A program made the translations under genes and the position numbers. 64,000 nt of DNA. It comes from Candidatus Margulisiibacteriota bacterium (GTDB lineage: Bacteria > Margulisbacteria > WOR-1 > O2-12-FULL-45-9 > XYB2-FULL-48-7). Shown in pieces: positions 21,147-36,332 of this stretch (positions within the stretch are counted from its first letter, which is position 1; every line of letters starts with the position of its first letter). Below the pieces are notes generated by a model. The model was not told where the DNA came from, searched no databases, and was given only the letters and a program-made list of their open reading frames with translations. The DNA lies in assembly GCA_025453605.1 (NCBI GenBank), contig JALOPZ010000001.1, positions 365,042 to 429,041 of the forward strand. Direction: 5' to 3'.

Positions 21147-22637
21147 GTGAAAAAGATTATGCAATTGACCGCGCTGGTCCTCTGCTGCGCCGGTCTGCTC
21201 TCCCCCGCCTGGAGCCTCACCCTGCAAAAGATCCGCTTTGGTTACTATCCCGACAAGATCCGGGCGGCGCTCGACTTCGACGGCCCGTTCACCTATACTC
21301 TCGACGAATCGCGGGAACGGATCATCATCAACCTGCCGCAGACGGAAGCCGCGCCCGAGATCAGCAATTACATTGAATCGAGCGACCTGATCGTCCGTTA
21401 TTTTGAGATCGAAAAGATCGACGACGGCCTGAAGGTGACCGTCCCGCTCAGCGAGCCGGTCCCCTACAGCGTTTATACGCTATCCGATCCCGCCCGGCTG
21501 GTGCTCGATTTCAAGCGCGACTTCACCAACATCATCTCCGGCGGGACGATCGTCGACGGGGTCGAGCATCTCAAAGTCTCCCGGGGAACGGCCAGCGGCC
21601 GGATCACCGCCGACGTCCTCAAGGTTGACCTGAACAAAGCGAGTGTCGCCCCCGCCCTGGCGCTTAAGAACAAACCGAACGCACTGGAATCGTTCATTAA
21701 CACCGTCTCACCCTGGCGCAACGTCGACGACGACAAACACTTTTTCCGGGCGCGCGTCAGCACCATCGCCGACCAGCAGGGGGCAGTGGCGGCGGTCAAT
21801 GGCACCTACTTTGCCTACACCGGCAAGCCGCTCGGCACCCTGCTGATCGACAAGGAGATGGTCTCCTCGCCGATCTACGACCGAACGGCGCTGATCATCA
21901 ATGATGAACGCCAGGCGTTCATCGACAACGTCCTGATCGACAGCTACTTTAAGACCGCGGGCAACCTGCGCTACAACATCGGCGGCGTCAATCAGGGGCG
22001 CAAGGACAACTCCTTTGTCCTCTACACGCCGGCCTGGGGGGAGAAGACCGGGACCGATACCAGCGGGATCGAACTGATCCTCTCCGGTTCGGTGGTCAGG
22101 GAGATCAGGCTCGGCAACTCAATCATCCCGGCCGACGGCTATGTCCTCTCGCTTTGCGGTCCGGCCAGCCAGTTCGTCAACGAGAACGTCAAGGTCGGCG
22201 ATCGGCTCGACGTCCACCTGAAGATCATCCCCTACACCACCCCGCTCAAGAGCGTCCTGCACATGATCTCCGGCGGGCCCCGGCTGGTCAAGGAGGGAGT
22301 GGCCTACGTCTCCAAGCAGGAAGAAAAGTTCAAGGCTGATGTCGCGCTCGGCCGGGCCGCGCGGACGGCGGTCGGCCTGACCAAGGACGGCAAGATCCTC
22401 CTGGTCACGGTCGACGGCGCGCCGCGCGCCAAAGGGAGCCGCAACGATCGGAGCAGCATCGGGATCTCGCTGGAGGACCTGGCCGAAATGCTGATCAGTC
22501 TGGGGGCGGTGGAAGCGATGAACCTGGACGGAGGCGGCTCGTCAACCATGTGGATCGACGGCCGGGTGGTCAATAAACCGGCCAACGGCTACGAGGTGGG
22601 CGTCAGCAACGCGCTGGTCGTCAAACCGCGTTTTTAA
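21147..22637 (+). CDS. AMIN-domain protein fused to a phosphodiester glycosidase (NAGPA-like) domain
   Basis: Signal peptide. N-terminal AMIN-like beta-rich region. C-terminal AMNLDGGGSSTMW signature of the phosphodiester glycosidase family. Confidence 0.65.
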   Translation: MKKIMQLTALVLCCAGLLSPAWSLTLQKIRFGYYPDKIRAALDFDGPFTYTLDESRERIIINLPQTEAAPEISNYIESSDLIVRYFEIEKIDDGLKVTVPLSEPVPYSVYTLSDPARLVLDFKRDFTNIISGGTIVDGVEHLKVSRGTASGRITADVLKVDLNKASVAPALALKNKPNALESFINTVSPWRNVDDDKHFFRARVSTIADQQGAVAAVNGTYFAYTGKPLGTLLIDKEMVSSPIYDRTALIINDERQAFIDNVLIDSYFKTAGNLRYNIGGVNQGRKDNSFVLYTPAWGEKTGTDTSGIELILSGSVVREIRLGNSIIPADGYVLSLCGPASQFVNENVKVGDRLDVHLKIIPYTTPLKSVLHMISGGPRLVKEGVAYVSKQEEKFKADVALGRAARTAVGLTKDGKILLVTVDGAPRAKGSRNDRSSIGISLEDLAEMLISLGAVEAMNLDGGGSSTMWIDGRVVNKPANGYEVGVSNALVVKPRF

Positions 22638-22936
22638 TCGTTGACCGGGCCGGAGAATTGCGCGAAGTACTGCTTGAAATCCTCGGAGAGCGGCACGACG
22701 CCGTCCCAGCGTTTGACGATGCTGCCGTTCTGCTCGATCACGGTCGCCGGGATCTTGCTGACCTCGTAGAACGCTCCCTCCGCCAGTCCGTCCATGGTGG
22801 TTTCCATGTCAAAGAACGAGAGCTTGACCTTGCTGTCGTCAATGTTCCAGCGGCCGAAGAACGTCTCGAACTTCTTCATCGTCGTCTTGCAATACTCGCA
22901 GCCCGGCTTGCCGAACACTTTTACTTCCATGGTCAT
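22634..22936 (-). CDS. Thioredoxin/glutaredoxin-like small protein (CxxC)
   Basis: VKVFGKPGCEYCK active-site motif in a Trx-fold-sized protein (100 aa). Confidence 0.6.
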   Translation of the reverse strand: MTMEVKVFGKPGCEYCKTTMKKFETFFGRWNIDDSKVKLSFFDMETTMDGLAEGAFYEVSKIPATVIEQNGSIVKRWDGVVPLSEDFKQYFAQFSGPVND

Positions 22937-23253
22937 GACCTCTCTTCCAAGACTTTTTTGATCGCCAGGAACTGGACCAGCAACCCGCTGAACAGGCAGA
23001 TGTTGAACACCAGGTACATCAGCTCCTGGACCAGCCGCGAAGGATTGTAAACGCTGTAATCGGCGAAGAAATTATAGACGTGCAGCACGGCAATGACCAG
23101 GACCGCCGGCAGGATGTACTTCCACCCCTTGGCCAGGACGTAATTGTCCTTCATTCCCAGGCAGCGGATGATCTCCAGCGCCAGGAACGCCGAGCCGAAG
23201 ATCAACACGATGTTGACGCCGACCAGCACATCGGTGAACAGCTCGAGCATCAT
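22933..23253 (-). CDS. Small 3-4 TM membrane protein (DoxX/MauE-like?, hypothetical)
   Basis: Start set at MMLELF. A TATAAT -10 lies 9 nt upstream, so the mRNA may be leaderless. Overlaps the downstream Trx-like gene by 4 nt. Confidence 0.4.
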   Translation of the reverse strand: MMLELFTDVLVGVNIVLIFGSAFLALEIIRCLGMKDNYVLAKGWKYILPAVLVIAVLHVYNFFADYSVYNPSRLVQELMYLVFNICLFSGLLVQFLAIKKVLEERS

Positions 23254-23302
23254 GATAAAAAAATTATACTCCAATTAACCTTGCTGTCAAGCCGGGCCGC
23301 GG

Positions 23303-23331
23303 TTGACTTAAGCCGGCGTCCATTATATATT
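23303..23331 (+). promoter_or_regulatory. Sigma70-like promoter (TTGACT-17-TATATA) for the pilus ATPase gene
   Basis: -35 at 23303-23308 and -10 at 23326-23331. ATG at 23346. Confidence 0.45.
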
Positions 23332-23345
23332 TAGTCCGAAGAGCG

Positions 23346-25031
23346 ATGCAGCAAACCCGCAAGACCGTCGGCGAATATCTGGTCGAGAATCGGCTGCTCA
23401 GTGTAGCCCAGCTGCAGACTGCCCGGCTGGAATCGGAAAAGACCGGCGAATCGCTCAGCCATGTCCTGATCCGCCTCGGCCTGGTACCGGAAGAGCGGAT
23501 CCTGGAATATTACACCGACCACTGCCTGATCCCGACCGGCGACGTCAAAAAGCTCGACCCGCAGGTCCTCCCCCTCATCCCCGAAGCGACGGCCAAGAGA
23601 TACCACCTGTTGCCGCTCGCCCGCAAGGACAACCGGCTGATCATGGCGCTCTCCGACCCGCTCAACGTCATCGTCCTGGACGAGATCAAGTTCCGGACCG
23701 GGCTGGAGATCGAGGTCCGGGTGGCGCGCGAATCGGAGATCGCCCAGGCGATCGCCCAGTACTACGGCGCGCAGGGGTCGGTCGGCGAACTGATCAAGAA
23801 CATCGATCTCCGCTCGGTCGCGGTCGGCGACGAGGACCTCGATCTCTCCAAGCTGCAGAGCCTGGCGGAAGAGGCGCCGATCATCAAGCTGCTCAACACC
23901 TTCATCACCCAGGCTTTTCATGATCGCGCCTCCGACCTGCACATCGAGCCGGACGAGAATATCCTGCGCGTCCGTCACCGGATCGACGGGGTCCTCTACG
24001 ACGTCGCCACTTTGCCTAAATACCTGCAGCCGGCGATCATCTCGCGCGCCAAGATCATGGCCGAGATGAACATCGCCGTCAAACGGGCGCCGCAGGACGG
24101 CCGCTTTCAGATCGACATCGAAGGGAATCCGATCGATGTCCGCGTTTCCAGCTTCCCGACGATCTACGGCGAGAACATCGTCATGCGGCTGCTCGACACC
24201 CGCTCCATCCTGCTCGGTCTGGACGAGGTCGGCTTCTCGCCGGAAGATCTGGCCCGGTTCAATTCGCTGCTCAAATACCCCAACGGCATCATCCTGGTGA
24301 CCGGGCCGACCGGCTGCGGTAAAACGACCACCCTCTATTCCGCGCTCAACACGCTCAACTCGCCGAAAAAGAACATTATGACGATCGAGGACCCGGTCGA
24401 GTACCATCTGTTCGGCATCCGCCAGGCGCAGATCAACGTCAAGGCCGGGCTAACGTTCGCCACCGGCCTCCGCTCCATCCTCCGTCAGGACCCCGACATC
24501 ATCATGGTCGGTGAGATCCGTGACCTGGAAACCGCCGAGATCGCCGTCCAGGCGGCGCTGACCGGCCACCTGGTGTTGAGCACGCTCCACACCAACGACG
24601 CCCCCTCTGCCCTGACCCGGCTGGTCGACATGGGGGTGGAGCCGTTCCTGATCGCTTCTTCGGTCATCGGCATCGTAGCGCAGCGCCTGGTCCGGACGAT
24701 CTGCAAAGAATGCAAAACTTCGTTCCACCCCGCTCCACCGGTCCTCGAAGAACTGCACGCTGACCTGCGCGGCCAGGATGTGGCCTTTTTTGCCGGTAAA
24801 GGGTGTAAGGCGTGCAAGGAGACCGGCTATCGCGGCCGGACCGGGATCATCGAGCTGCTGGCGATGAACGAACCGATCAAAGAGCTGATCATTGCCAAAG
24901 CGTCAGCCGGCGCGATCTTAAAAGCAGCTGAGGCAGCGGGGATGCGTTCGATGCGGACCGCCGGTATCACTAAAGCGCTGGCCGGGATCACGACGATCGA
25001 CGAAGTCCTGCAGGTAACGAGGGTCGAATAA
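23346..25031 (+). CDS. pilB: Type IV pilus assembly ATPase PilB (GspE family)
   Basis: N-terminal T2SSE_N-like domain, Walker A GPTGCGKTTT, Asp/His boxes and a C-terminal tetracysteine cluster (CKEC...CKAC). Confidence 0.9.
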   Translation: MQQTRKTVGEYLVENRLLSVAQLQTARLESEKTGESLSHVLIRLGLVPEERILEYYTDHCLIPTGDVKKLDPQVLPLIPEATAKRYHLLPLARKDNRLIMALSDPLNVIVLDEIKFRTGLEIEVRVARESEIAQAIAQYYGAQGSVGELIKNIDLRSVAVGDEDLDLSKLQSLAEEAPIIKLLNTFITQAFHDRASDLHIEPDENILRVRHRIDGVLYDVATLPKYLQPAIISRAKIMAEMNIAVKRAPQDGRFQIDIEGNPIDVRVSSFPTIYGENIVMRLLDTRSILLGLDEVGFSPEDLARFNSLLKYPNGIILVTGPTGCGKTTTLYSALNTLNSPKKNIMTIEDPVEYHLFGIRQAQINVKAGLTFATGLRSILRQDPDIIMVGEIRDLETAEIAVQAALTGHLVLSTLHTNDAPSALTRLVDMGVEPFLIASSVIGIVAQRLVRTICKECKTSFHPAPPVLEELHADLRGQDVAFFAGKGCKACKETGYRGRTGIIELLAMNEPIKELIIAKASAGAILKAAEAAGMRSMRTAGITKALAGITTIDEVLQVTRVE

Positions 25032-25034
25032 GCC

Positions 25035-26249
25035 ATGAGCGAATTCGCTTACAAGGTCAGGGACGATAAAGGGCGGCTGGTCGCCGGCCGGATGCCGGGC
25101 GCAACCTCCGGCGAAGTGGTCGACCGTCTGCACAATCTCGGCTACACGGTCGTCTCCGTCAAACCGGCCGCGGCGGGCTTTGCGCTCGACTTTTCGCTCC
25201 CCTCCTTTAGCCGGATCAAGACGGAGGATTACGTCATGCTCGCCTCTCAGCTGGCGGCAATGCTGGCGGCCGGGGTGGCGCTGACCGCAGCACTTGATGT
25301 CATTGTCGAGCAGACCGAGAACCCGCGCCTGCGCGCGGCGCTCCAGCGGACCTCGGACGACGTCAAAGCCGGCAGCTCTCTGGCCGACGCGCTGCGTAAA
25401 CACCACGGGACCTTTCCGACCTTATTCGTCAATATGGTGGCAGCCGGTGAAGTAGCCGGGAACCTGGAAGAAGTCCTGGCGCGGCTTTCGGTCTTCATGG
25501 AAAAGCAGGCCGATTTCCAGCAAAAAGTGCTGACGGCAATGTTCTACCCGATCATTCTCCTCTGCTTCAGTCTGGCGGTCATCATCCTGGTCATCCTGAC
25601 CCTGCTCCCCGCGTTCGTTAAGATGTTCAAAGATGCCGGCGTACCGCTCCCCGGGCCGACCCAGTTCCTGTATAATGTTAATCTGCTGGTCCGCAATTAC
25701 TGGCTCTTCCTGCTGCTCGGCCTCTCCGGGCTCTTCCTCGGTCTCCGTTATTTCCTGCGGACCCCGTTCGGTCGGGCGTTATTTGACCGGCTGACCCTTG
25801 ACCTCCCCGTCTGGGGAACGCTCAGCCGCAAGGTCGCGATCGCTCGCATCTTCCGCACGCTGGCGTCGCTCCTGACCGCCGGCGTCCCGATCCTCAAGGC
25901 GCTGGAAACGCTGGAAAAAACGACCGAGAACACCGTCTATGCCGGAGTGATCAGGGAGGCGCAGCACAACGTCAGCAAAGGGGGGAGCCTGGCCGAACAA
26001 CTGCGGGCGAGCGGGGAGTTCCCGACGATGGCGGTCAAGATGGCGGCGGTGGGCGAAGAAGCCGGCTCACTCGACAAGATGCTCGCCAAGGTCGCCGACT
26101 TTTACGAGCTGTCGGTTGATTACGCCGTCAAGCGCCTGACCGCCCTGATGGAGCCGTTCTTTCTCGTCGTGGTCGGCGGGGTGGTCGGTTTTATCCTCGC
26201 TTCGGTCATCATGCCGATCTTCCAGATGGTTTCGACGCTCCGCCGCTAG
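25035..26249 (+). CDS. pilC: Type IV pilus inner-membrane platform protein PilC (GspF family)
   Basis: Duplicated GspF domains and 3 TM segments. Immediately downstream of pilB. Confidence 0.9.
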   Translation: MSEFAYKVRDDKGRLVAGRMPGATSGEVVDRLHNLGYTVVSVKPAAAGFALDFSLPSFSRIKTEDYVMLASQLAAMLAAGVALTAALDVIVEQTENPRLRAALQRTSDDVKAGSSLADALRKHHGTFPTLFVNMVAAGEVAGNLEEVLARLSVFMEKQADFQQKVLTAMFYPIILLCFSLAVIILVILTLLPAFVKMFKDAGVPLPGPTQFLYNVNLLVRNYWLFLLLGLSGLFLGLRYFLRTPFGRALFDRLTLDLPVWGTLSRKVAIARIFRTLASLLTAGVPILKALETLEKTTENTVYAGVIREAQHNVSKGGSLAEQLRASGEFPTMAVKMAAVGEEAGSLDKMLAKVADFYELSVDYAVKRLTALMEPFFLVVVGGVVGFILASVIMPIFQMVSTLRR

Positions 26250-26254
26250 AGGCC

Positions 26255-26710
26255 CTATTGCGGCCGCAGGGCGACGCCGATCTTCGCAAAAATATAGACT
26301 GACACCAGCAGCAGGACGATCCCCAGGCTAAAGCGCGAGCTCAGGGCGATCCGGTCCATCAATAAAACGTCCTGGTCAGAGAGCCGGGAAAGCCGGAGCA
26401 TCCAGTCCGGCCAAAAAAGGTAAAGCAGGCCGACCGCGATGATCAGCGCGCCCCCGGCCACGAAGCCGAGATAATAACCGGGATAATCCCAGAGCGAATG
26501 AATGATCCACCCGCCGCCCGCGATCAGCAACAGGCCGAAAACCAGATTGTGCCGGCGCAGGCTGACCTCAACATGGAAGAGCGGGAGGTTGCAGAGGGCG
26601 TTCAACCAGCGCCAAAACCCGAGCGGGAGAAGCAGAAAGAGAAAGCCGAAGAATGCACTGACCGCGCCGGCCGCCAGGACCAAATTGATCATGCCCCCAT
26701 TGTAAAACAC
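26255..26710 (-). CDS. Small integral membrane protein (hypothetical)
   Basis: 4 hydrophobic helices. A CTCTTGACA -35 and TACAAT -10 lie directly at its 5' end. Confidence 0.45.
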   Translation of the reverse strand: MFYNGGMINLVLAAGAVSAFFGFLFLLLPLGFWRWLNALCNLPLFHVEVSLRRHNLVFGLLLIAGGGWIIHSLWDYPGYYLGFVAGGALIIAVGLLYLFWPDWMLRLSRLSDQDVLLMDRIALSSRFSLGIVLLLVSVYIFAKIGVALRPQ

Positions 26711-26739
26711 CGGGCGGGAATGTCAAGAGCGGGGATATC

Positions 26740-26768
26740 TTGACTTTACCTTGTCCATCTGGCAATAT
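26740..26768 (+). promoter_or_regulatory. Sigma70-like promoter (TTGACT-17-CAATAT) for the major pilin gene
   Basis: -35 at 26740-26745 and -10 at 26763-26768. AAAGGGGGAG RBS. ATG at 26796. Confidence 0.5.
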
Positions 26769-26795
26769 TCATAGTAAGTAAAGGGGGAGTTATTC

Positions 26796-27227
26796 ATGAA
26801 TTTGAAAAAAGCTTTTTCGATCGTTGAGCTCCTGATCGTTATGGCCGTGATCGCGATCCTGGTCAGTATCGCTATCCCGAGCTTCCGGGCAATGCAGACC
26901 GAGGCTTGGAAAGCCAAAGCCCAGGGCGACGTCCGGGTCCTGAAGATCGCGCTGGAAAGCTACTTCAAGAACCACGGTTCGTTCCCGGCGGTCGCTAATT
27001 ACCAGACCACCCTGCTGGCAGAGACCCCGCCGGTGCTGGAATCAACTCTTTACGATCCGTTCGGCGCCAGCAGCACAACCGCTTATTCTTACGTTGTTTC
27101 CACCAGCGGCAAATATTACGCCGTCTATTCCGTCGGGTATGGCGGGACCGGCGCGCTGACCGTCGCGGACACCGGTGCCGTCGCCACAACGGCCGGCACC
27201 CCGATATACGCCACGAACGGCCGCTGA
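26796..27227 (+). CDS. Type IV pilin / pseudopilin (prepilin-type N-terminal cleavage/methylation domain), probable major pilin
   Basis: MNLKKAFSIVELLIVMAVIAILVSIAIP class-III signal with Glu+5. Unusual Ala (not Gly) at -1. Own strong promoter and RBS. Confidence 0.8.
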   Translation: MNLKKAFSIVELLIVMAVIAILVSIAIPSFRAMQTEAWKAKAQGDVRVLKIALESYFKNHGSFPAVANYQTTLLAETPPVLESTLYDPFGASSTTAYSYVVSTSGKYYAVYSVGYGGTGALTVADTGAVATTAGTPIYATNGR

Positions 27228-27242
27228 CCGCGTTCAGCCTGA

Positions 27243-27602
27243 ATGGTTAAACGGGGCTTTTCGCTTGTTGAGCTCCTGATCGCCGTTGCGCTGATCGTGA
27301 CCGCGCTGATCCCACTCCTCCAGGCGCTCGGCAGTACGCTGATCGCTTCTACTTCCTCCGTGACCGAAGCGACCGCCCTCAATCTGGCCGGCAATAAAAT
27401 GGAAGAGCTTAAAAGCTTGACCTTCGCCGCACTCACGGCCGAAGCGAAAAGCTCCCTCCCCAACCAACCAAACCTGCAGCGCTCGGTCAGCGTTGACTCG
27501 CCGGCCGTCAATCTGAAACGTGTCGCTGTGACCGTCTCCTGGGCAACGGCGGCCAGCAGCGAAAGCGCCGTTACCCTGGAAACCTATGTCGCGAATTTCT
27601 AA
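27243..27602 (+). CDS. Minor pilin with prepilin-type N-terminal domain
   Basis: KRGFSLVELLIAVALIV signal. Confidence 0.75.
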   Translation: MVKRGFSLVELLIAVALIVTALIPLLQALGSTLIASTSSVTEATALNLAGNKMEELKSLTFAALTAEAKSSLPNQPNLQRSVSVDSPAVNLKRVAVTVSWATAASSESAVTLETYVANF

Positions 27603-28065
27603 AGGCTTTACCCTGGTCGAGGTGCTCCTCGCCTCCCTCCTCTCCGGCCTCCTGATCGTACTCGTCATCTCCGCTTATTTGGCCGGCGCCCGGCTCTTTG
27701 AGAATGAGCTCAGCCAGTCGGATCTTTTCTGGTCGGGCCAGCAGGCAGCCGAGACCATGGCCGCTCGGATCAGGGAGAGCCAGGCGGCGACCGATCCACA
27801 GAGCGATCGGCTCACCCTCTGGTGGCGCGACCTGGACAACGACGCTTCGGCCGAAGCCGACGAACTGCTCACCTATTCGGTTTCCGGCGAAAGTTTGCTG
27901 GAAACCACGGGCGGGACCGGCCGCGGTCTGGCCAGAGCCGTCCACTCACTGGTCTTTTCCTACGACGGCCTGACCGACCCCAAACTGGTCACCGCGACCC
28001 TGACCTTGAGCAGCGAAAGCACGGTCATCACGATCGAGTCGGTCGCCCGGATCAGAAATCAATGA
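27586..28065 (+). CDS. Minor pilin with prepilin-type N-terminal domain (PilW/GspJ-like)
   Basis: SKGFTLVEVLLASLLSGLLIV signal. ATGA overlap with the next gene. Confidence 0.75.
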   Translation: MSRISKGFTLVEVLLASLLSGLLIVLVISAYLAGARLFENELSQSDLFWSGQQAAETMAARIRESQAATDPQSDRLTLWWRDLDNDASAEADELLTYSVSGESLLETTGGTGRGLARAVHSLVFSYDGLTDPKLVTATLTLSSESTVITIESVARIRNQ

Positions 28066-29222
28066 TGAAAAAGGGGAACATCTTACCGCTTACGTTCATC
28101 CTGATCAGCGCCCTGGCGGCGATCGTCTTTAGTTACTCCTACCTGACGGTCACCAGCCTGAAAAACAGCGGCCGCGCCGTCAGCCAGGCGCAAGCCCTCT
28201 GTCTGGCCGAAGCCGGCCTGGCGAAAGCGACCTGGTATTTGATGACGCCGGTCGTATCCGGCGGCAAGGGAATAACCTGGCGAACGCCGGGGACGACCGA
28301 AAGTTTCGCCGGCGGCAGTTATACCCTGCGGATCAACGACCCCTCCAGCGGTAATATTCTGATCACGGCAGAAGGGACGGTTGGCAGCGTCAACCGGGTG
28401 ATCCAGGCTGAATATAACCAGTACCCGGCCGCCGTTAAGTACGGGATCTTCGGCAGTAATTACCTTGGGATCGGCGATCGCACCCGGGTCAGGGGGGATA
28501 TCTACAATAATGGCGATGTTCAGATCGATCCGGGCGCTATTGTTTCCGGCGAAGTGGTCGTGACCCCCGGGCACTCGATCTCCGGCGGCGGCACCTGGAC
28601 TCCGGGCTCCCTCCCAGCAGACCCGCCCGCCTTCCCCTGGCTGGACACCACCTACTACGATGCCGAGATCGCCGCCGCCGCTGCCCAGAACTTAAACATC
28701 AATAAATATTATTACGGGACGGTCAATCTCGCCGGCGGCAAGCTCTACGACAAGAACAACATGACCATCTATGGGACCATCGTCGGTCCGGGTGTGATCG
28801 CCGCCGCCTATGATCTGACAATTAAGTTCGGGGCGACGATCGACCAGCGCGTTACGCTGATCGCCGGACGCAATTTGAAGTTCGAGAACAGCATCAGCCT
28901 CGGCGGTGACAGCACGATGTTCGGCCGCACCAGCATCTCCTTTTTCGACAACATCGCCATTGCCAACCGGGTCTCCCTGCTTTCCCCAAATCTGGTCTCA
29001 ATTGGCAACTGGCAAACCATCAATGGTATAATCTACGGCGGTCAGGTTTCCATCGGCAATCACAGCGTGGTCAGGGGGAATTTGATCGGCGGGGCGACCG
29101 GCGCTGTTAGCCTGGGGGATGATTCATATTTCTCCTTTGATCCGATCAGGCGGCCCAGCACGCCACCCCCGGGGCTGGACACCAGTTTTTCGTTCCGGAA
29201 CGGCTCCTGGAAGGAATTATAA
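28062..29222 (+). CDS. PilX-like large minor pilin / pilus tip protein with a repetitive C-terminal region
   Basis: N-terminal hydrophobic segment, then AQALCLAEAGLAKA (the PilX_N A-x-AL-x-AEAG motif). C-terminus rich in G-x-I/V repeats, suggesting a beta-helix. Confidence 0.6.
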   Translation: MMKKGNILPLTFILISALAAIVFSYSYLTVTSLKNSGRAVSQAQALCLAEAGLAKATWYLMTPVVSGGKGITWRTPGTTESFAGGSYTLRINDPSSGNILITAEGTVGSVNRVIQAEYNQYPAAVKYGIFGSNYLGIGDRTRVRGDIYNNGDVQIDPGAIVSGEVVVTPGHSISGGGTWTPGSLPADPPAFPWLDTTYYDAEIAAAAAQNLNINKYYYGTVNLAGGKLYDKNNMTIYGTIVGPGVIAAAYDLTIKFGATIDQRVTLIAGRNLKFENSISLGGDSTMFGRTSISFFDNIAIANRVSLLSPNLVSIGNWQTINGIIYGGQVSIGNHSVVRGNLIGGATGAVSLGDDSYFSFDPIRRPSTPPPGLDTSFSFRNGSWKEL

Positions 29223-30778
29223 TGCTCGGACTGGACATTGGCGATAAACGGATCAAAATAGTTGAGCTCAAGGAGATGCCGGCCGGTCCGACCCTGACCG
29301 GCTACGCCATCAGCGAGGTCCTGATCAAGATGGAGGGAGAAGACCAGTCTCAGGCCCTCGCCCGCACGATCGCCACCGCCGTTAAGGCCCACCGTCTGGA
29401 AGGGAAAGAAGTCTTTTCCGTTATTTCCGGCCCCAAAGTCCAGACCAGGCGGCTCTCCCTGCCGCACATGCCGCCGCAGGAGCTGAGCCAGGCCGTGGTC
29501 TGGGAAGCCAAGAACTTTATCTCTTTTCCGGTAGAGAACGCCGTTATCGACCACTACGTGCTGGATAAAGCGCCCGGTCAGGGAGACAAGCTCGATGTCA
29601 TCGTCGTGGCGGTCGAGGCCGACACCCTGAAAAAACACGTCGCCACGATCGAAGCGGCCGGTCTCAAGTGCAGCGGCGTGACGATCCCGCCGTTCGCCAT
29701 TCTGGAAACCGTCAAGCTCCTCCCTCAGGTCGTCAAGTCCGACCTGGTCGCGCTGATCGACTGGGGAGAGCGGACGGCCAGCCTGAATATTTTCCGCAAC
29801 GACCTGCTCCTCTTCACCCGCGAGATCACCCTGGCCGGCGCCGACATCACCGGCGCGATCGCCAAGGAGCTCGCGCTCGACCTGCCCGCTGCCGAGAACC
29901 TCAAGACTAACTGCGGTCTGCCGGCCCGCGACGACCTCTCGCAAACCTGCGAAGGGATCGCCCTGCCGGTCATCCGTGAGGCGATGGTCACCATCCTGAC
30001 CCGGCTGCAGAACGAGATCGTTTCGTCGTTCGATTATTTTCGCGAGCATTTCGGCGACGAGAAGGTCGCCCGGATCTTCCTCTCGGGCGGTTCCAGCAAA
30101 CTGAAGAACGTCGAGGACCATCTGAGCGCGGAGCTCGGCACCCTGGTCACGGTTGTCGATCCGACCAAGGTCGTCCGCCTTGATCCGGGGCTCGACCTAG
30201 CCGCGCTGAACGGCGACGCCCCCTTTCTGACCCTGGCGATCGGGGCGGTCCTCGGCCGGGAGCGGGAGATCAATTTCCTGAAGATCAAAGAAAAGAAAAC
30301 GAACTCGCCGGTTAATTTTGTCTCTCAGCTGCTCGACCGCATCCAGATCCCCAACGCCTCGATCATTGCCGCCCTGTTCCTGCTGGCGGCCCTGCTGGTC
30401 GGCTTTAATTTCTACCTGAACTGGACGATCGAGGACACCCGCAAGGAGCTTAGCGTCAAGAGCCTGAAATTGAGCCAGCTGGTCAAGTACCGCGACCGCA
30501 AGATCGCTTTCCAGGACATCACCAACAAGGAGATCGACGTCAAGCAGCTGCTCGTCCGGGTCGACACTCTGATGCCCAAGAGCCTCTCACTCGCCTATTT
30601 TCTCTTTGATAACAGCAAAGGGGAGGTCGAGATCGCCGGCGAAAGCGAGAATCCGCAACCGGTCTCCGATTTCTCGAAAAAACTGGAAGATTCACCCTAC
30701 TTCCACAAGATCCGGCTGATCGAGATCAAAAAAGTCGGTCTCGTGACCACTTTTCGGATCGGTTTTCAGGTCAATTAA
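29222..30778 (+). CDS. PilM-PilN fusion protein (actin-like ATPase fold plus TM/coiled-coil PilN)
   Basis: N-terminal MLGLDIGDKRIKIVEL... (PilM/FtsA-like). The C-terminal third has a single TM (IIAALFLLAALLVGFNFYL) and a coiled coil, like PilN. Confidence 0.8.
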   Translation: MLGLDIGDKRIKIVELKEMPAGPTLTGYAISEVLIKMEGEDQSQALARTIATAVKAHRLEGKEVFSVISGPKVQTRRLSLPHMPPQELSQAVVWEAKNFISFPVENAVIDHYVLDKAPGQGDKLDVIVVAVEADTLKKHVATIEAAGLKCSGVTIPPFAILETVKLLPQVVKSDLVALIDWGERTASLNIFRNDLLLFTREITLAGADITGAIAKELALDLPAAENLKTNCGLPARDDLSQTCEGIALPVIREAMVTILTRLQNEIVSSFDYFREHFGDEKVARIFLSGGSSKLKNVEDHLSAELGTLVTVVDPTKVVRLDPGLDLAALNGDAPFLTLAIGAVLGREREINFLKIKEKKTNSPVNFVSQLLDRIQIPNASIIAALFLLAALLVGFNFYLNWTIEDTRKELSVKSLKLSQLVKYRDRKIAFQDITNKEIDVKQLLVRVDTLMPKSLSLAYFLFDNSKGEVEIAGESENPQPVSDFSKKLEDSPYFHKIRLIEIKKVGLVTTFRIGFQVN

Positions 30779-30780
30779 CC

Positions 30781-31641
30781 ATGCTGAAAGAAAAAATAAT
30801 TAAGATCAGTACCCTGGGCCTGATCCTGCTGCTCGGTTTCATGCTCTATCGCGTTTTTATCATCCCCAAGCGCGAAGGGATCAAGAACCTGAAGCGGTCG
30901 CTCAAGAACATCGAGTTCCAGATGAACCGCTTCCTCGGCGAGGAGGTGGCGCAGCGCGGCGGGTCAATGGAAAAAGACCAGCTCGAACAGGAACTGGCCA
31001 AACTGGTCTCACGGATCCCGTCCGAGCGGGACCTGCCGCGGATCATCGACCAGATCCTGATCCAGGCCGGTAAGGGATTAAAGATCGAATACACGCGGAT
31101 CGAGCCGAAGGAGTCCAAGCGTGAGGGAAGCTACCTTAATTTACCGATCGAGATCGAGTTCCTTTGTTCCTACCAGGACTTGTTCACTTATCTGACCCAG
31201 CTCAAGGCGCTCCCCGAGGTGACCGTGACCAACGCCCTCGACCTGCGGCGGCTCCCCGACCAGCCTGACCGGCTGGCGGTCCGGCTCCTCCTCTCCGCCT
31301 TTGTCGTTCCCGAAGAAGAGGAGGAACGGGCCACAGCGATCAACCAGGAACTTCCGGCGGGGACCCCGAGCCTAAATCCGTTCAAGCCCCGCTATGCCCC
31401 CGCTGCCACCAGTTCCGCCCCCCTTCCGGTCAAGGTCGCCTCGACCGACACGACCTCGCGGCCAGCAGAGGTCATGACCCTGGAGGGGATCGTTAAAGGA
31501 GAGTTCAGCGCGGCGCTGATCAACGGGCAAGTCATCTATGTCGGTGATAAATATAACGGGTACGAGCTGATCAATATCCGGCAAAACAGCGCGATCCTCC
31601 GCAAAGGGGGGCGCACCATCACCCTGCAGCAGAAGGATTAG
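30781..31641 (+). CDS. PilO-like protein with a C-terminal PilP-like beta domain (fusion)
   Basis: TM plus coiled coil plus the GLKIEYTRIEP PilO core. The C-terminal LEGIVKGEFSAALINGQVIYVGDKYNGYELINIRQNSAILRKGGRTITL resembles the PilP beta-sandwich. Confidence 0.6.
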   Translation: MLKEKIIKISTLGLILLLGFMLYRVFIIPKREGIKNLKRSLKNIEFQMNRFLGEEVAQRGGSMEKDQLEQELAKLVSRIPSERDLPRIIDQILIQAGKGLKIEYTRIEPKESKREGSYLNLPIEIEFLCSYQDLFTYLTQLKALPEVTVTNALDLRRLPDQPDRLAVRLLLSAFVVPEEEEERATAINQELPAGTPSLNPFKPRYAPAATSSAPLPVKVASTDTTSRPAEVMTLEGIVKGEFSAALINGQVIYVGDKYNGYELINIRQNSAILRKGGRTITLQQKD

Positions 31642-33773
31642 CTGACGGTCAGACTGCCGTCCCGGTGGCGGTCACGTAGTTCCGCGATCTTCCCCTTGTT
31701 CCACCCCGGCACCCGCGAAAAATAACCGGTGATCCGCGTGATCCCTTCGATGTTGGCCGAACTGCAGGCGGGACAGGCCGCATGCAGGCCGCGAGCAGTC
31801 CGCCCGCAGTCGGCGCAGGCGGTGAACTCTGGCGAAAAGGCGATCTGGCCGTTCAGCGTGGTCCGGAAAGTCTTGATCACGAAATTGGCGATCGACTCCG
31901 CATTCGGCCGGGCTTCGCCGAGCCAGATGTGGGTCAGCGCGCCGGCATCGATCAGCGGGTGGAATATCCCCTCCTGCCGGACCCGGTCGATCGGGCTCAT
32001 CTGGTGGCTGACGTTAAAATAGGTCGAGTTGGTGTAATAGATCTCTGCCGTGCCGGGATTCCCCTTCAGGACCTGGCCGGCCTGTTCCGGAAAATGCTCG
32101 CGGTCGAGCCGGGCAAAGCGGTAGGCGGTCGATTCCGCCGGCGTCTGCTCCAGAACAAAATGGAGGTCGTACTTCTCCGACAGCTCCTGGCATTTTAGCT
32201 TCATGAAAGAGATGACCTTGAGGCCAAGCTTGAGCGCGTCCGGCCCTTCGTGCAGCTCCTTACCCAGGTGATACTGGACCAGTTCGTTGAGGCCGAGGAT
32301 CCCGATCAGGTGCGTGACGCGCCGCAGGCGCAGGTACATCTCCCCGTCGCGCTTGGTCGCCAGGAGCGAAAGCGGCCCGTCCGCTCCCTCTTTGAGCAGC
32401 GCTTCGATAAAGTTCCGTTTCTCGCGGTGGGCCTGGGCGGCGATCCGCAGTTTCTGTTCGATCTCCTGAAAAAGGCGGTCGTCATCGTGATCGGCGACAT
32501 AAGCCGCCCGCGGCAGGTTGATCGTTACGTTCTGGATCGCCGAGTAGCGCATCCGCCACGGCTCTTTGGCGTCCTGCAGATCGGAGTATTCCAGCTTGAA
32601 CGCCAGCCGGCAGCACTCGGAGATCTTGGCCGTTTCGCCCCGGTCAAAAACAAAGTAGGTGTTCCCCTTTTCCGCGGCGACCTCGCAGATCAGCCGGAGG
32701 AATTCCTCGTGCCCCGGGGTCTGGAAGAATTTTTCCGTCATGTGGACGAGCGGTTTGGGAAAAAAGAACGGCCGGCCCGCCCCATCGCCTTCCAGGTAGA
32801 CCTCGAACATCGCGGTAGCGAACTGCTGGGCCAGGTGATTGTAAGCGGCGTAAGTTTTGCCGGTGTAGACCCCGCCCGCCCCCATCGCCGGGACCGCTTC
32901 AAAGTGCTTGGGCGTTTCCCAGTAAATATTCAAATCGGAAAACAGCCCCTGGCCGCCGCGGGAAACGGCCACCGTGGCGAATTCGTAGATCAGTTTGCGG
33001 GCCAGTTTCTTTATCTCTTCGTAGGTCAGCCCCTCCAGCAGCGGCGAGAGGAAGAGGTTGACCGCGTCCCAGCCGATCGCCCCGGCAAAATGGCCATGCA
33101 GCGCGACGGAGAACTTGACGATCTGCGAGATCAGCGCGTCGGCATCCTGCGCCGGCTTCTCCGCCTTGCCGGCATCCGGCAGATCGAGCCCGAACTTCTT
33201 GACGAACTCGATCGACTGCCCGCTGCAGTACGGCCGGTCGACAAAGCCGAGGTCGTGCAGGTGGATCTCCCCCGCCATGTGGGCGTCAGCGACCGGGAGG
33301 GAAAAGACGCTGAGGAGGGCGTACTCCTTTTTGATGTTCTCGGCGAGCGTCAGGTTGGTCGCTTCCGGCGAATGCGGCGAGTTGGCGTTCTCCTTGTTCT
33401 TGTGGAAGATGATCCGGTTAACGTCGTAGACCGGCACGCCCAGGCGGGTATGCTTGCGTCGCGCGTCCTCCAGCCCGTACTCCAGCAGCTTGACGTCGAC
33501 CAGCTCGCGGATCAGCGGCGCGGTGATGTTGCGGACCGCCATCGCTTTGATCTGCTTCTCCACCTCAATAGCGATGATCCCGGCGATCTCCGGATTAAGA
33601 CCGGTCTCCTTGTGGAGCGCGGCGACAATCTTCTCTTTGTCCCAGGCGATGATGTCGTCGGTCGACGTCCGGACAAAGACCGACAGGTCGGTCGCTTCTT
33701 CCGCCGGCGCCTCCGCCGGCCGTCGGTTAATTGTTGTTAAGCTGCCCACTCCGGTACCTGTCTTTGAGCTCAC
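31638..33773 (-). CDS. nrdD: Anaerobic ribonucleoside-triphosphate reductase (class III) paralog 1
   Basis: About 710 aa. C-terminal Zn ribbon CADCGRTARGLHAACPACSS followed by the glycyl-radical motif RITGYFSR. Adjacent nrdR. The start overlaps the paralog's 3' end, so it may lie further downstream. Confidence 0.85.
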   Translation of the reverse strand: MSSKTGTGVGSLTTINRRPAEAPAEEATDLSVFVRTSTDDIIAWDKEKIVAALHKETGLNPEIAGIIAIEVEKQIKAMAVRNITAPLIRELVDVKLLEYGLEDARRKHTRLGVPVYDVNRIIFHKNKENANSPHSPEATNLTLAENIKKEYALLSVFSLPVADAHMAGEIHLHDLGFVDRPYCSGQSIEFVKKFGLDLPDAGKAEKPAQDADALISQIVKFSVALHGHFAGAIGWDAVNLFLSPLLEGLTYEEIKKLARKLIYEFATVAVSRGGQGLFSDLNIYWETPKHFEAVPAMGAGGVYTGKTYAAYNHLAQQFATAMFEVYLEGDGAGRPFFFPKPLVHMTEKFFQTPGHEEFLRLICEVAAEKGNTYFVFDRGETAKISECCRLAFKLEYSDLQDAKEPWRMRYSAIQNVTINLPRAAYVADHDDDRLFQEIEQKLRIAAQAHREKRNFIEALLKEGADGPLSLLATKRDGEMYLRLRRVTHLIGILGLNELVQYHLGKELHEGPDALKLGLKVISFMKLKCQELSEKYDLHFVLEQTPAESTAYRFARLDREHFPEQAGQVLKGNPGTAEIYYTNSTYFNVSHQMSPIDRVRQEGIFHPLIDAGALTHIWLGEARPNAESIANFVIKTFRTTLNGQIAFSPEFTACADCGRTARGLHAACPACSSANIEGITRITGYFSRVPGWNKGKIAELRDRHRDGSLTVS

Positions 33774-35862: not shown

Positions 35863-35870
35863 CTGCCCGA

Positions 35871-36332
35871 CTATTCGACGGGCGCCGCCGTTAACTCTTT
35901 AACTTCTTTAAGAAACTCGGACACGTGCTCGAACTTGCGGTAGACCGAAGCGAACCGGACGTACGCCACCTTGTCGACCGCCTGCATTTTTTCCATGATC
36001 AATTCGCCGATCTTGGAGCTTTGGACCTCGCGGCCCGCTTCGCGGTGGATCTCGCGCTCGATCTCGTCAACGATCGTCTCGATCGTCTCCAGCGAGACCG
36101 GGCGTTTCTGGCAGGCGTGCAGGATCCCGCGAATGACCTTGTCCCGGTTGAACTGCTCGCGCCGGCCGTCCCGCTTGATCACCATGATCGGGCGCTCCTC
36201 GATCCGCTCGTAAGAGGTAAAACGGCCCCGGCAGGAGAGACATTCGCGGCGGCGGCGGATAACCATCCCTTCGTCAACTTCGCGCGACTCCAAGACCTTA
36301 TCTTCAATTGTGTCACAGAATGGGCATTTCAT
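35871..36332 (-). CDS. nrdR: Transcriptional repressor NrdR
   Basis: MKCPFCDTIEDKVLESR...CLSCRGRFTSYE zinc ribbon plus an ATP-cone. Confidence 0.9.
   Translation of the reverse strand: MKCPFCDTIEDKVLESREVDEGMVIRRRRECLSCRGRFTSYERIEERPIMVIKRDGRREQFNRDKVIRGILHACQKRPVSLETIETIVDEIEREIHREAGREVQSSKIGELIMEKMQAVDKVAYVRFASVYRKFEHVSEFLKEVKELTAAPVE

What the first reader, a model, noticed from the sequence alone, without database searches (positions are those of the whole stretch)
23346..31641. Secretin-less type IV pilus cluster with PilM-PilN and PilO-PilP-like fusions and an Ala(-1) major pilin
The cluster carries pilB, pilC, a major pilin with its own promoter, two minor pilins and a PilX-like protein with the AQALCLAEAGLAKA motif. 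It then carries a 518-aa PilM protein fused to a PilN TM/coiled-coil part, and a PilO protein fused to a PilP-like beta domain. ATGA coupling is seen at 28062-28065.

No PilQ secretin, PilD peptidase or PilT retraction ATPase is present in this 8 kb. The organism is nonetheless diderm (BamA, TamB, Lnt, FadL).

The major pilin has Ala rather than Gly at the -1 cleavage position. A PilP-like domain without an adjacent secretin is unusual and may point to a non-canonical outer-membrane conduit.
Basis: partly seen in the sequence, partly recalled or inferred. Interest (0 to 1): 0.55.

Follow-up and report, generated by a model that had tools for sequence, protein, structure and literature searches.

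The report
Type IV pilus cluster, fused alignment proteins
This is a real type IV pilus gene cluster from an uncultured Margulisbacterium in which four "alignment" proteins are fused into two. Its missing outer-membrane pore gene is best explained by loss from this site in one lineage, not by a new kind of pore.

Summary
Window 23346-31641 encodes PilB, PilC, a major pilin with Ala at -1, two minor pilins, a PilX-like protein, a PilM-PilN fusion (518 aa) and a PilO protein (286 aa) with an extra C-terminal beta domain.

No secretin, PilD or PilT lies in the 64-kb window.

The "non-canonical conduit" idea is not supported. The contig comes from a Candidatus Margulisbacteria genome. In more distant relatives the same cluster ends with a TPR-secretin gene that overlaps the PilO-PilP gene. 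In the window's clade (five loci) that gene is absent.

Two sibling MAGs with the same secretin-less locus carry a second pilus-like locus elsewhere (PilMN, PilO, separate PilP-like protein, ~430-aa secretin). The PilP-like domain is as conserved as the PilO domain in the secretin-less clade, so it probably still docks on a secretin encoded elsewhere.

I could not reach the rest of this genome to show that directly.

Ala(-1) and PilM-PilN fusion are both documented elsewhere. The PilO-PilP fusion is widespread in metagenomes, but I did not find it described.

The parts
23303..23331 (+). Sigma-70-like promoter match (TTGACT-17-TATATT) upstream of pilB
   Evidence: Consensus scan, 10 of 12 matches. 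Not evidence of function.
23346..25031 (+). PilB/GspE-type assembly ATPase (561 aa) with an N-terminal MshEN domain, Walker A GPTGCGKTT and a tetracysteine CxxC...CxxC motif
   Evidence: Pfam T2SSE 1.2e-135 and MshEN 2.2e-21. NCBIfam GspE 629 bits and PilB 621 bits. Motifs read from the translation.
25035..26249 (+). PilC/GspF platform protein (404 aa)
   Evidence: Pfam T2SSF 3.3e-64, two repeats. GspF and PilC NCBIfam models score about 340 bits.
26255..26710 (-). Small multi-pass membrane ORF (145-151 aa) of unknown function, opposite strand. It is conserved at this position in the window's clade only. Whether it belongs to the system is uncertain.
   Evidence: No family hit. Homologous minus-strand ORFs occur in L001, L004, L009, L102 and weakly in L008. 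It is absent from L005 and L010. It has no GxGDxK peptidase motif.
26740..26769 (+). Sigma-70-like promoter match upstream of the major pilin, followed by a GGGGGAG ribosome-binding site
   Evidence: Consensus scan, 9 of 12 matches. Sequence read.
26796..27227 (+). [quoted passage not shown] No cysteines. The alpha1C region is GspG-like.
   Evidence: N_methyl 1.4e-5 and T2SSG 0.017. TIGR01710 gspG 9.9e-10, below its cut-off. Orthologues are 61-66% identical in L020 and L008.
27243..27602 (+). Minor pilin 1 (119 aa), G|FSLVE, weakly PilV/GspI-like
   Evidence: N_methyl 4.2e-5. PilV 3e-4 and GspI 5e-4, both sub-threshold.
27586..28065 (+). Minor pilin 2 (159 aa), G|FTLVE. It overlaps minor pilin 1 by 17 nt.
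   Evidence: N_methyl 8.8e-4. Coordinates.
28062..29222 (+). PilX-like large pilin-like protein (386 aa). It has an N-terminal hydrophobic helix without Glu5, an AQALCLAEAGLAKA motif and a beta-helix-like repeat body. It is probably a tip or priming subunit. Its start overlaps the upstream stop (ATGA).
   Evidence: No family hit for the window protein itself. Of six family members, 2 hit PilX_N (2.6e-4), 2 hit DUF7305 (5.8e-6) and 3 hit bactofilin. The profile gives weak left-handed beta-helix matches in PDB. ATGA read.
29222..30778 (+). PilM-PilN fusion (518 aa). The parts are: actin-like PilM domain (residues 3-344); junction peptide E-I-N-F-L-K (residues 349-354), equivalent to the PilN N-terminal INLLP motif; one TM segment (about 373-403); coiled coil; and the periplasmic PilN domain (residues 449-515).
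   Evidence: PilM_2 4.4e-41 and PilN 1.2e-6. TIGR01175 passes its cut-off. Junction alignment and TM scan.
30781..31641 (+). PilO-PilP fusion (286 aa). The parts are: N-terminal TM segment (4-30), coiled coil, PilO ferredoxin-like domain (64-173), a poorly conserved disordered linker (176-231), and a C-terminal HR/PilP-fold domain (232-286).
   Evidence: PilO 6.4e-12. AF2 full-length model: linker pLDDT below 50, both domains about 80.
31474..31638 (+). HR/PilP-fold beta domain (residues 232-286 of the PilO-PilP fusion), the presumed secretin-N0-binding module
   Evidence: - Pfam over 13 homologues: Y4YQ_C 11, T2SSB 10, CdsD_C 9, T2SSC 2.
- Separate-gene homologue: blastp 2.6e-6 to the separate 154-aa protein that sits between the PilO-like gene and the secretin in L014.
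- Gene position: the domain's HMM marks the gene just upstream of the secretin in most secretin loci where that gene is present.

Best explanation
The region is the main type IVa-like pilus locus of a diderm Candidatus Margulisbacteria bacterium.

Proposed working:
- PilB (assembly ATPase) and PilC (platform) polymerise a small GspG-like pilin that has an Ala(-1) class III signal peptide.
- Polymerisation is primed by two minor pilins and a large PilX-like subunit.
- The PilMNOP alignment subcomplex is built from two polypeptides instead of four.
- In PilM-PilN, the cytoplasmic actin-like domain is tethered to its own INLLP-type peptide, TM helix and periplasmic PilN domain. This is the same arrangement as GspL.
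- In PilO-PilP, a flexible linker of about 55 residues carries an HR/PilP-fold domain that reaches the N0 domain of an outer-membrane secretin.

Ancestrally that secretin was encoded immediately downstream and carried an N-terminal TPR module. In the window's clade the gene has been lost from the locus. In the window, L009 and L102 the nrdD-nrdD-nrdR genes now lie there. The machine most likely uses a secretin encoded elsewhere, probably the ~430-aa secretin of a second pilus-like locus found in sibling genomes.

Shown here: the gene content, the two fusions, the fold of the C-terminal domain, the presence of the secretin in relatives and its absence in this clade, and the second secretin locus in two sibling MAGs.

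Inferred: binding of the HR domain to a secretin, use of a remote secretin in this genome, and pilus (rather than secretion) function.
For: Identity and origin:
- The contig is JGI Ga0392394_0000001 (790,553 bp). NCBI names the same proteins as Candidatus Margulisbacteria.

Components and fusions:
- The INLLP-type junction motif is conserved in seven PilMN fusions, and there is a single TM segment.

HR/PilP fold of the C-terminal domain:
- Pfam over 13 homologues gives T2SSB, T2SSC, CdsD_C and Y4YQ_C.
- The same domain is a separate TM-anchored 154-170-aa protein between the PilO-like gene and the secretin in L014, L017 and L018. The L018 protein carries a weak T2SSC hit.
- The domain HMM finds the gene just upstream of the secretin in most secretin loci where that gene is present, including canonical PilM|PilN|PilO|PilP-position|PilQ loci.

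Secretin in relatives:
- L005, L010, L013, L032 and L033 have PilMN, then PilO-PilP, then TPR-secretin with overlapping stop and start. L038 (a short contig, PilMN not present) shows PilO-PilP followed by the secretin.
- L010 also has PilT in the cluster.

Loss in the window's clade:
- L008: PilO-PilP is followed directly by fmt.
- Window, L009 and L102: nrdD-nrdD-nrdR lie between PilO-PilP and fmt.
- L020: an extra PilX-like gene and then nrdD follow.

Second secretin locus in sibling MAGs:
- GCA_043812255.1 carries L009 plus L017.
- GCA_043816785.1 carries L102 plus secretin P0312. The link rests on neighbouring accession numbers.

Constraint on the HR domain:
- Within the secretin-less clade, mean pairwise identity is 57% for the HR domain, 57% for the PilO domain and 34% for the linker.
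Against: - No secretin, PilD or PilT of this genome was actually seen. Only about 74 kb of a 790-kb contig could be read, and other contigs of the genome could not be reached.
- None of the 120 best secretin homologues lies on a contig of 790,553 bp. A secretin is therefore probably not on this contig and would have to be on another one.
- The metagenome scan returned no contig from this sample.
- Pfam's PilP model (PF04351) does not hit the domain, and a sequence-profile search of PDB is not significant (best relevant hit GspC 2lnv, E = 1.6). The PilP-like call therefore rests on fold and gene position.
- The second locus has its own PilMN, PilO and PilP-like proteins, so sharing of its secretin is a hypothesis.
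- PilB and PilC score equally well as GspE and GspF, so a secretion-type pseudopilus cannot be excluded.
Confidence: 0.72

Rival explanations
1. The locus is a type II secretion-like pseudopilus system, not a surface pilus. The order E-F-G-(I-J-K-like)-L-like-M/C-like mirrors gsp operons. A fused PilMN equals GspL, and PilO plus an HR domain equals GspM plus GspC.
For: - GspE (629 bits, cut-off 630) and GspF (343 bits) score as well as PilB and PilC.
- The pilin's best NCBIfam hit is GspG (9.9e-10).
- The HR domain's best structural match is GspC rather than PilP.
- No PilT lies in the window.
Against: - The alignment proteins match PilM_2, PilN and PilO above their thresholds. GspL and GspM give only E = 0.047 and 0.028.
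- PMC6916266, citing Denise et al. 2019, treats PilM, PilN and PilO as specific to type IVa pili.
- A related cluster (L010) contains a PilT retraction ATPase.
- No GspH-like pseudopilin and no candidate substrates lie in the locus.
Confidence: 0.13
2. After losing its secretin the machine works without any secretin. It would either form a periplasmic endopilus (for example for DNA uptake or envelope functions) or use a non-secretin outer-membrane conduit.
For: - No secretin lies in the window or its downstream flank.
- None appears on the 790-kb contig among the top 120 database hits.
- Five loci of the clade lack it at the locus.
Against: - The HR/PilP-fold domain is known as a secretin N0-binding module in GspC, PilP and GspB (top matches; PMC9239104 for GspB). 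It is as conserved as the PilO domain in this clade.
- Both sibling MAGs that could be checked do carry a secretin, with N0, Secretin_N and Secretin domains, in a second locus.
- No candidate alternative conduit gene lies in the cluster.
Confidence: 0.08
3. The locus is decaying: a remnant left after the secretin was lost.
For: The secretin is absent. L009 also lacks the PilX-like gene, and L102 has a DUF559 gene inserted in the operon.
Against: - All nine genes are intact, with overlapping or closely spaced starts and stops.
- The orthologous sets stay intact across a clade that has diverged to 43-48% identity.
- Domain-level conservation is unchanged.
Confidence: 0.05

Closest known systems
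Type IVa pilus machinery of diderm bacteria (PilBCD, PilA, minor pilins, PilMNOP, PilQ; Pseudomonas, Myxococcus and Thermus models)
   Same: It shares the assembly ATPase, platform protein, class III signal-peptide pilins and a minor-pilin set with a PilX-like member. It also shares the PilM, PilN and PilO domains and a PilP-fold domain at the position that links to the secretin.
   Different: - PilM+PilN and PilO+PilP are each one polypeptide.
- The PilP-like module is anchored through PilO's TM helix instead of a lipid anchor.
- No pilQ, pilD or pilT lies at the locus.
- The pilin has Ala at -1 and no disulfide.
- Relatives' secretins are short (510-555 aa) and carry an N-terminal TPR module.
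Type II secretion system inner-membrane assembly platform (GspL, GspM, GspC)
   Same: [quoted passage not shown]
- The gene order resembles gspE-F-G...L-M.
   Different: - Sequence families are PilM_2, PilN and PilO, not T2SSL and T2SSM.
- The HR domain is fused to the PilO/GspM-like protein rather than to a separate GspC with a PDZ or coiled-coil domain.
- A PilT lies in a related cluster.
Clostridioides difficile type IV pilus cluster with fused PilMN
   Same: [quoted passage not shown]
   Different: C. difficile is monoderm and has no PilP or secretin. According to PMC6916266 the monoderm PilM-PilN contact may use a different motif, whereas here the diderm-type INLLP-like peptide is kept at the junction.
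Cyanobacterial pilMNOQ system (sister phylum)
   Same: The lineages are related, both are diderm, and the alignment-complex and secretin genes are clustered. PilP is not a separate gene in the cluster.
   Different: In cyanobacteria pilP is a separate gene encoded away from pilMNOQ (PMC12288463). Here the PilP-like module is fused to PilO. Cyanobacterial PilM and PilN are described as separate genes in that review.
GspB/OutB scaffolding protein of Dickeya
   Different: GspB is a separate protein without a PilO domain. The T2SSB hit of the window protein is below Pfam's cut-off (23.1 against 28.4 bits).

Membership tests
Type IVa pilus system | PilB-type assembly ATPase and PilC-type platform protein | tested here: met
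   T2SSE 1.2e-135 and T2SSF 3.3e-64. The PilB and GspE equivalog models both score just below their cut-offs.
Type IVa pilus system | [quoted passage not shown] | tested here: met
   Three genes match N_methyl / TIGR02532. The motifs were read directly. The major pilin has Ala at -1.
Type IVa pilus system | PilM, PilN and PilO assembly/alignment proteins | tested here: met
   PilM_2 141 bits, PilN 28.9 bits and PilO 46.3 bits are all above Pfam's cut-offs. TIGR01175 scores 166 against 133. PilM and PilN are fused.
Type IVa pilus system | PilP linker to the secretin | tested here: inconclusive
   The fold matches PilP and GspC-HR, and the gene position in relatives is the PilP position. Pfam PilP PF04351 gives no hit. 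There is no lipobox; the module is anchored through PilO.
Type IVa pilus system | PilQ secretin | tested here: not met
   This verdict applies to the window only.
- No secretin lies in the 64-kb window or its downstream flank.
- A secretin is present next to the cluster in relatives.
- A secretin is present in a second locus of two sibling MAGs.
- The rest of this genome could not be tested.
Type IVa pilus system | PilD prepilin peptidase | tested here: not met
   This verdict applies to the window only. No GxGDxK-bearing membrane ORF occurs in the window, and no Peptidase_A24 hit appears in the scans. The rest of the genome could not be tested.
Type IVa pilus system | PilT retraction ATPase | tested here: not met
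   This verdict applies to the window only. No second T2SSE-type ATPase lies in the window. A PilT (351 aa) lies inside the related cluster of L010.
Type II secretion system | GspL and GspM family proteins | tested here: not met
   TIGR01709 gspL gives E = 0.047 (12.8 bits against a cut-off of 65). GspM_XpsM gives E = 0.028 (14.1 against 60).
Type II secretion system | GspD secretin and GspC with an HR domain | tested here: inconclusive
   An HR fold is present but is fused to PilO. No secretin lies in the window. Relatives' secretins carry GspD-like N0, Secretin_N and Secretin domains.
Com (ComG) competence pseudopilus | A comGA-GG-type operon | tested here: not met
   The ComGA, ComGB, ComGC and ComGE models are hit far below their cut-offs. 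PilM, PilN and PilO are present in this locus.

The most novel reading that the evidence does not exclude
A whole Margulisbacteria clade has discarded the dedicated TPR-secretin of its main pilus locus but keeps a conserved secretin-binding (HR/PilP) module on PilO. The most novel reading not excluded is that this machine has no secretin of its own kind at all. In that case the HR domain has been re-targeted, either to a non-secretin outer-membrane or peptidoglycan partner, or to make a purely periplasmic filament.
Probability: 0.08. Interest if true: 0.7.

Novelty: new variant of a known kind. Interest (0 to 1): 0.35.

Why it matters
- **Two-protein alignment complex.** The four-protein PilMNOP complex that links the cytoplasmic motor to the outer-membrane pore can be reduced to two polypeptides. 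This fixes the PilM:PilN and PilO:PilP stoichiometry at 1:1. [quoted passage not shown]
- **How common it is.** The PilO-PilP fusion is common in metagenomes: more than 100 clusters at 50% identity among the best 150 hits. I did not find it described in the searchable literature.
- **Structural use.** Fused, minimal machines are attractive for structural work.
- **Secretin sharing.** The clade-wide loss of the adjacent secretin, together with a second secretin-bearing locus, offers a test case for secretin sharing between two pilus-like systems in a phylum sister to Cyanobacteria.
- **Limits.** The components and their logic are otherwise ordinary.

Tried and rejected
Attempts to find this genome's own secretin, PilD or PilT:
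1. tblastn and motif scans of the window found nothing.
2. The downstream 10-kb flank contains no pil genes.
3. The first ORF of the window is not on record, so the upstream flank could not be read.
4. In the search with a relative's secretin, none of the 120 hits listed lies on the 790,553-bp contig, and none carries an MCU06... accession like the window's NCBI proteins.
5. The search with the window's PilMN found no second PilMN on the contig. That search works on shared words and gave only 29 hits.
6. The JGI metagenome scan with a secretin alignment returned 80 loci, none from sample 3300037461 or 3300037408.
7. P0131, on a 743-kb contig, turned out to come from another sample.

Other dead ends:
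- The genome-contig scan with the PilO-PilP alignment gave only one locus, L020, because the pattern chosen was narrow.
- The PDB sequence-profile search with the HR domain was not significant.
- Pfam PilP never hits these domains, not even the PilP-position proteins of canonical loci.
- Lookup of ten distant PilO-HR representatives returned no organism names.
- Searching papers for 'PilOP' gave only unrelated hits.
- Searching papers for Margulisbacteria pili gave nothing specific.

Ideas rejected:
- The 151-aa minus-strand membrane ORF as a short prepilin peptidase. It has no A24 family hit and no GxGDxK motif.
- The MshEN N-terminus of PilB as an established c-di-GMP receptor. The motif model scores 35.2 bits against a cut-off of 38, and as I read the sequence the key Arg and Gly positions of the motif are substituted.

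Full report
**1. What is in the sequence**

The plus strand from 23346 to 31641 carries nine tightly packed ORFs. One small ORF on the opposite strand lies between pilC and the pilin gene.

- 23346-25031 is a PilB/GspE-type ATPase. Pfam gives T2SSE 1.2e-135 and an N-terminal MshEN domain. GspE scores 629 bits and PilB 621 bits, both just below the equivalog cut-offs. The translation shows Walker A GPTGCGKTT and a CxxC...CxxC motif.
- 25035-26249 is PilC/GspF (T2SSF 3.3e-64).
- 26796-27227 is a 143-aa pilin starting MNLKKA|FSIVELL.
- 27243-27602 and 27586-28065 are minor pilins (G|FSLVE and G|FTLVE).
- 28062-29222 encodes a 386-aa protein with a pilin-like hydrophobic N-terminus that lacks Glu5.
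- 29222-30778 is PilM_2 (residues 3-344, 4.4e-41) plus PilN (residues 449-515, 1.2e-6) in one chain.
- 30781-31641 is PilO (residues 64-173, 6.4e-12) plus an unassigned C-terminal region.

The ATGA overlap at 28062-28065 is real. Sigma-70-like matches precede pilB and the pilin gene. These are consensus matches only.

**2. Nothing else pilus-related lies in the window**

- Pfam scans of the other large ORFs show housekeeping genes plus Omp85/POTRA and TamB, which confirms a diderm envelope.
- tblastn with a relative's secretin finds nothing in the window.
- Six-frame motif scans find no prepilin-peptidase GxGDxK motif in a real ORF and no further prepilins.

**3. Where the window comes from**

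The window is part of JGI contig Ga0392394_0000001 (790,553 bp). The same proteins occur in NCBI as "Candidatus Margulisbacteria bacterium" (MCU0640826 and MCU0640827).

**4. The C-terminal domain of the PilO protein**

- Nine homologues align over the full length. They share a conserved block of about 55 residues of the type LxLQGIxKG..AAIIN..V.VGD.IeGY.V..I....VVL.KGG....L.L.
- AlphaFold2 on the domain alone gives pLDDT 86.7 and six strands.
- Pfam scans of 13 such domains give Y4YQ_C in 11, T2SSB in 10, CdsD_C in 9 and T2SSC in 2.
- Pfam's PilP model is never hit, and a PDB sequence-profile search is not significant.
- The full-length model shows a disordered linker at residues 176-229.

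By sequence it sits nearer the GspB/GspC-HR models.

**5. Relatives explain the missing secretin**

In more distant relatives the PilO-PilP gene is followed by a 510-555-aa secretin with overlapping stop and start. These are L005, L010/L011 and L013 (PilO-PilP 39%, 29% and 31% identical in BLASTP alignments), and also L032, L033 and L038. The secretin carries a signal peptide, 2-3 TPR repeats, an N0/STN domain, Secretin_N and Secretin. Where the contig reaches far enough upstream, PilMN precedes PilO-PilP. L010 additionally has PilT and a second PilB inside the cluster.

In the window's own clade the secretin gene is absent:
- L008: fmt follows PilO-PilP directly. In L005 the order is secretin and then fmt.
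- Window, L009 and L102: nrdD-nrdD-nrdR lie between PilO-PilP and fmt.
- L020: a second PilX-like gene and then nrdD follow.

The simplest reading is one ancestral loss of the secretin from the locus in this clade.

**6. A second pilus-like locus with a secretin**

Margulisbacteria and Saganbacteria commonly carry another locus. Its order is three minor pilins, a DUF7305/PilX-like protein, a PilMN fusion (525-547 aa), a PilO-like protein (~170 aa), a TM-anchored protein of 154-170 aa, a ~425-455-aa secretin, and then gpsA and plsY. No ATPase or platform gene lies nearby.

The C-terminus of the 154-170-aa protein is homologous to the window's HR domain (blastp 2.6e-6). The L018 version carries a weak T2SSC hit.

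This locus occurs in the same MAG as a window-type secretin-less locus in two cases:
- GCA_043812255.1 holds L009 and L017.
- GCA_043816785.1 holds L102 and secretin P0312.

The contig of L005 carries both secretin types.

**7. Is the HR domain still needed without an adjacent secretin?**

Within the secretin-less clade, mean pairwise identity is 57% for the PilO part, 34% for the linker and 57% for the HR domain. In the secretin-linked group the values are 44%, 30% and 55%. There is no sign of relaxed constraint. This argues for a retained partner, most simply the other secretin.

**8. The fusions in context**

- The PilM-PilN junction keeps a PilN-type N-terminal peptide: EINFLK in the window and KINLLP in L014. 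A single TM helix follows. [quoted passage not shown]
- PilM-PilN fusion is already known from C. difficile (PMC6916266, PMC7057214). The PilMN pair is regarded as the counterpart of GspL (PMC4471445).
- In the fetched loci, PilMN fusions occur in all Margulisbacteria-type clusters and in several more distant ones. Canonical loci have separate PilM, PilN, PilO and a PilP-position gene that my HR-domain HMM detects.
- The PilO-HR fusion is not rare. A profile search of 1.84 billion representatives gave 211 hits at E ≤ 1e-10. More than 100 of the best 150 cover the whole profile at 265-330 aa. Their taxonomy is unknown.
- I found no description of a PilO-PilP fusion.
- In Cyanobacteria, the sister phylum, pilP is a separate gene away from pilMNOQ (PMC12288463).

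**9. Ala(-1)**

The orthologous major pilins have Ala in the window, L010 and L013, and Gly in L005, L008 and L009. Pneumococcal ComGC is cleaved after Ala15 and N-methylated (PMC3694846). PilD is described as cleaving after glycine or alanine (PMC3244431), although one review states that the leader "invariably ends with a Gly" in bacteria (PMC4471445). Ala(-1) is a tolerated variant and not a sign of a different processing route.

**10. The PilX-like protein**

The window protein has no significant family hit. Across six family members there are PilX_N hits (2 of 6, best 2.6e-4), DUF7305 hits (2 of 6) and bactofilin or left-handed beta-helix-like hits. A tip or priming pilin with a beta-helical body is plausible but not shown.

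**11. Pilus or secretion?**

PilM, PilN and PilO pass their curated cut-offs, while GspL and GspM do not. A related cluster also includes PilT. I therefore place the system with type IVa pili. The GspE, GspF and GspG scores are equally good, so I keep a T2SS-like function as a rival at about 0.13.

**12. What remains open**

I could not read the rest of this genome. No secretin among the top 120 homologues sits on the 790,553-bp contig, and the metagenome scan did not include this sample. If a secretin exists it is probably on another contig. The same holds for PilD and PilT.

**Verdict**

The domain assignments are correct. The "unusual conduit" inference is not supported. This is a lineage-specific variant of a known machine, with a compact two-protein alignment complex. 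Interest is moderate to low.

Noticed in passing
L005:10846-12378; L010:10001-11659; L013:4022-5689 (relatives, not in the window): The secretins next to the related clusters are short (510-555 aa). They carry 2-3 N-terminal TPR repeats in front of the N0, N1 and secretin domains. From memory, the TPR lipoproteins PilF, PilW and Tgl act as secretin pilotins in model type IV pilus systems, so this looks like a pilotin-like module fused to its secretin. I did not find this described.
   Followed up: partly
L014:4783-11281; L017:4706-11296; L018:7335-11368: Margulisbacteria carry a second pilus-like locus. It has minor pilins, a PilX-like protein, PilMN, PilO, a PilP-like protein and a ~430-aa secretin, but no ATPase, platform protein or obvious major pilin. 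It may depend on the PilB and PilC of the main locus, or the two loci may share parts.
   Followed up: partly
window 31638-36332 (minus strand): Two tandem 711-aa class III ribonucleotide reductase genes (NrdD) and nrdR lie where relatives have the secretin. The stop of the first nrdD overlaps the stop of the PilO-PilP gene by 4 nt. In L005 and L008, nrdD and nrdR lie upstream of the cluster instead, so a local rearrangement accompanied or followed the secretin loss.
   Followed up: partly
window 21147-22637 (+): A 496-aa protein with an AMIN domain and a NAGPA (phosphodiester glycosidase) domain lies just upstream of the cluster. It holds the same position in L001, L009 and L102. From memory, AMIN domains also occur at the N-terminus of PilQ secretins and in amidases that bind peptidoglycan. 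A link to the pilus system is untested.
   Followed up: no
window 26255-26710 (-), with a TTGACA-16-TACAAT match at 26726-26699: A conserved small membrane ORF (145-151 aa) with no family lies between pilC and the pilin gene, diverging from the pilin promoter region. It is found only in the secretin-less clade. The promoter-like site ends about where the JGI-called ATG (26692) lies, so the mRNA may be leaderless.
   Followed up: partly
window 23346-23780 (N-terminus of PilB): The MshEN domain of PilB scores just under the NCBIfam c-di-GMP-binding motif model (35.2 against 38 bits). As I read the sequence, several key positions of the motif are substituted. c-di-GMP control of the ATPase is possible but unproven.
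   Followed up: no
L102:8210-8665; L009:6814-8861; L020:4787-5866: The minor-pilin part of the operon varies within the clade. L102 has a DUF559 gene inserted before the PilX-like gene. L009 lacks the PilX-like gene. L020 has a second PilX-like copy after PilO-PilP.
   Followed up: no
window 22634-23274 (-): A thioredoxin-fold 100-aa protein and a 113-aa membrane protein are encoded divergently from pilB. A perfect TTGACA-16-TATAAT match lies at 23290-23263 on the minus strand. The pair is conserved next to the cluster in L001, L009 and L102.
   Followed up: no
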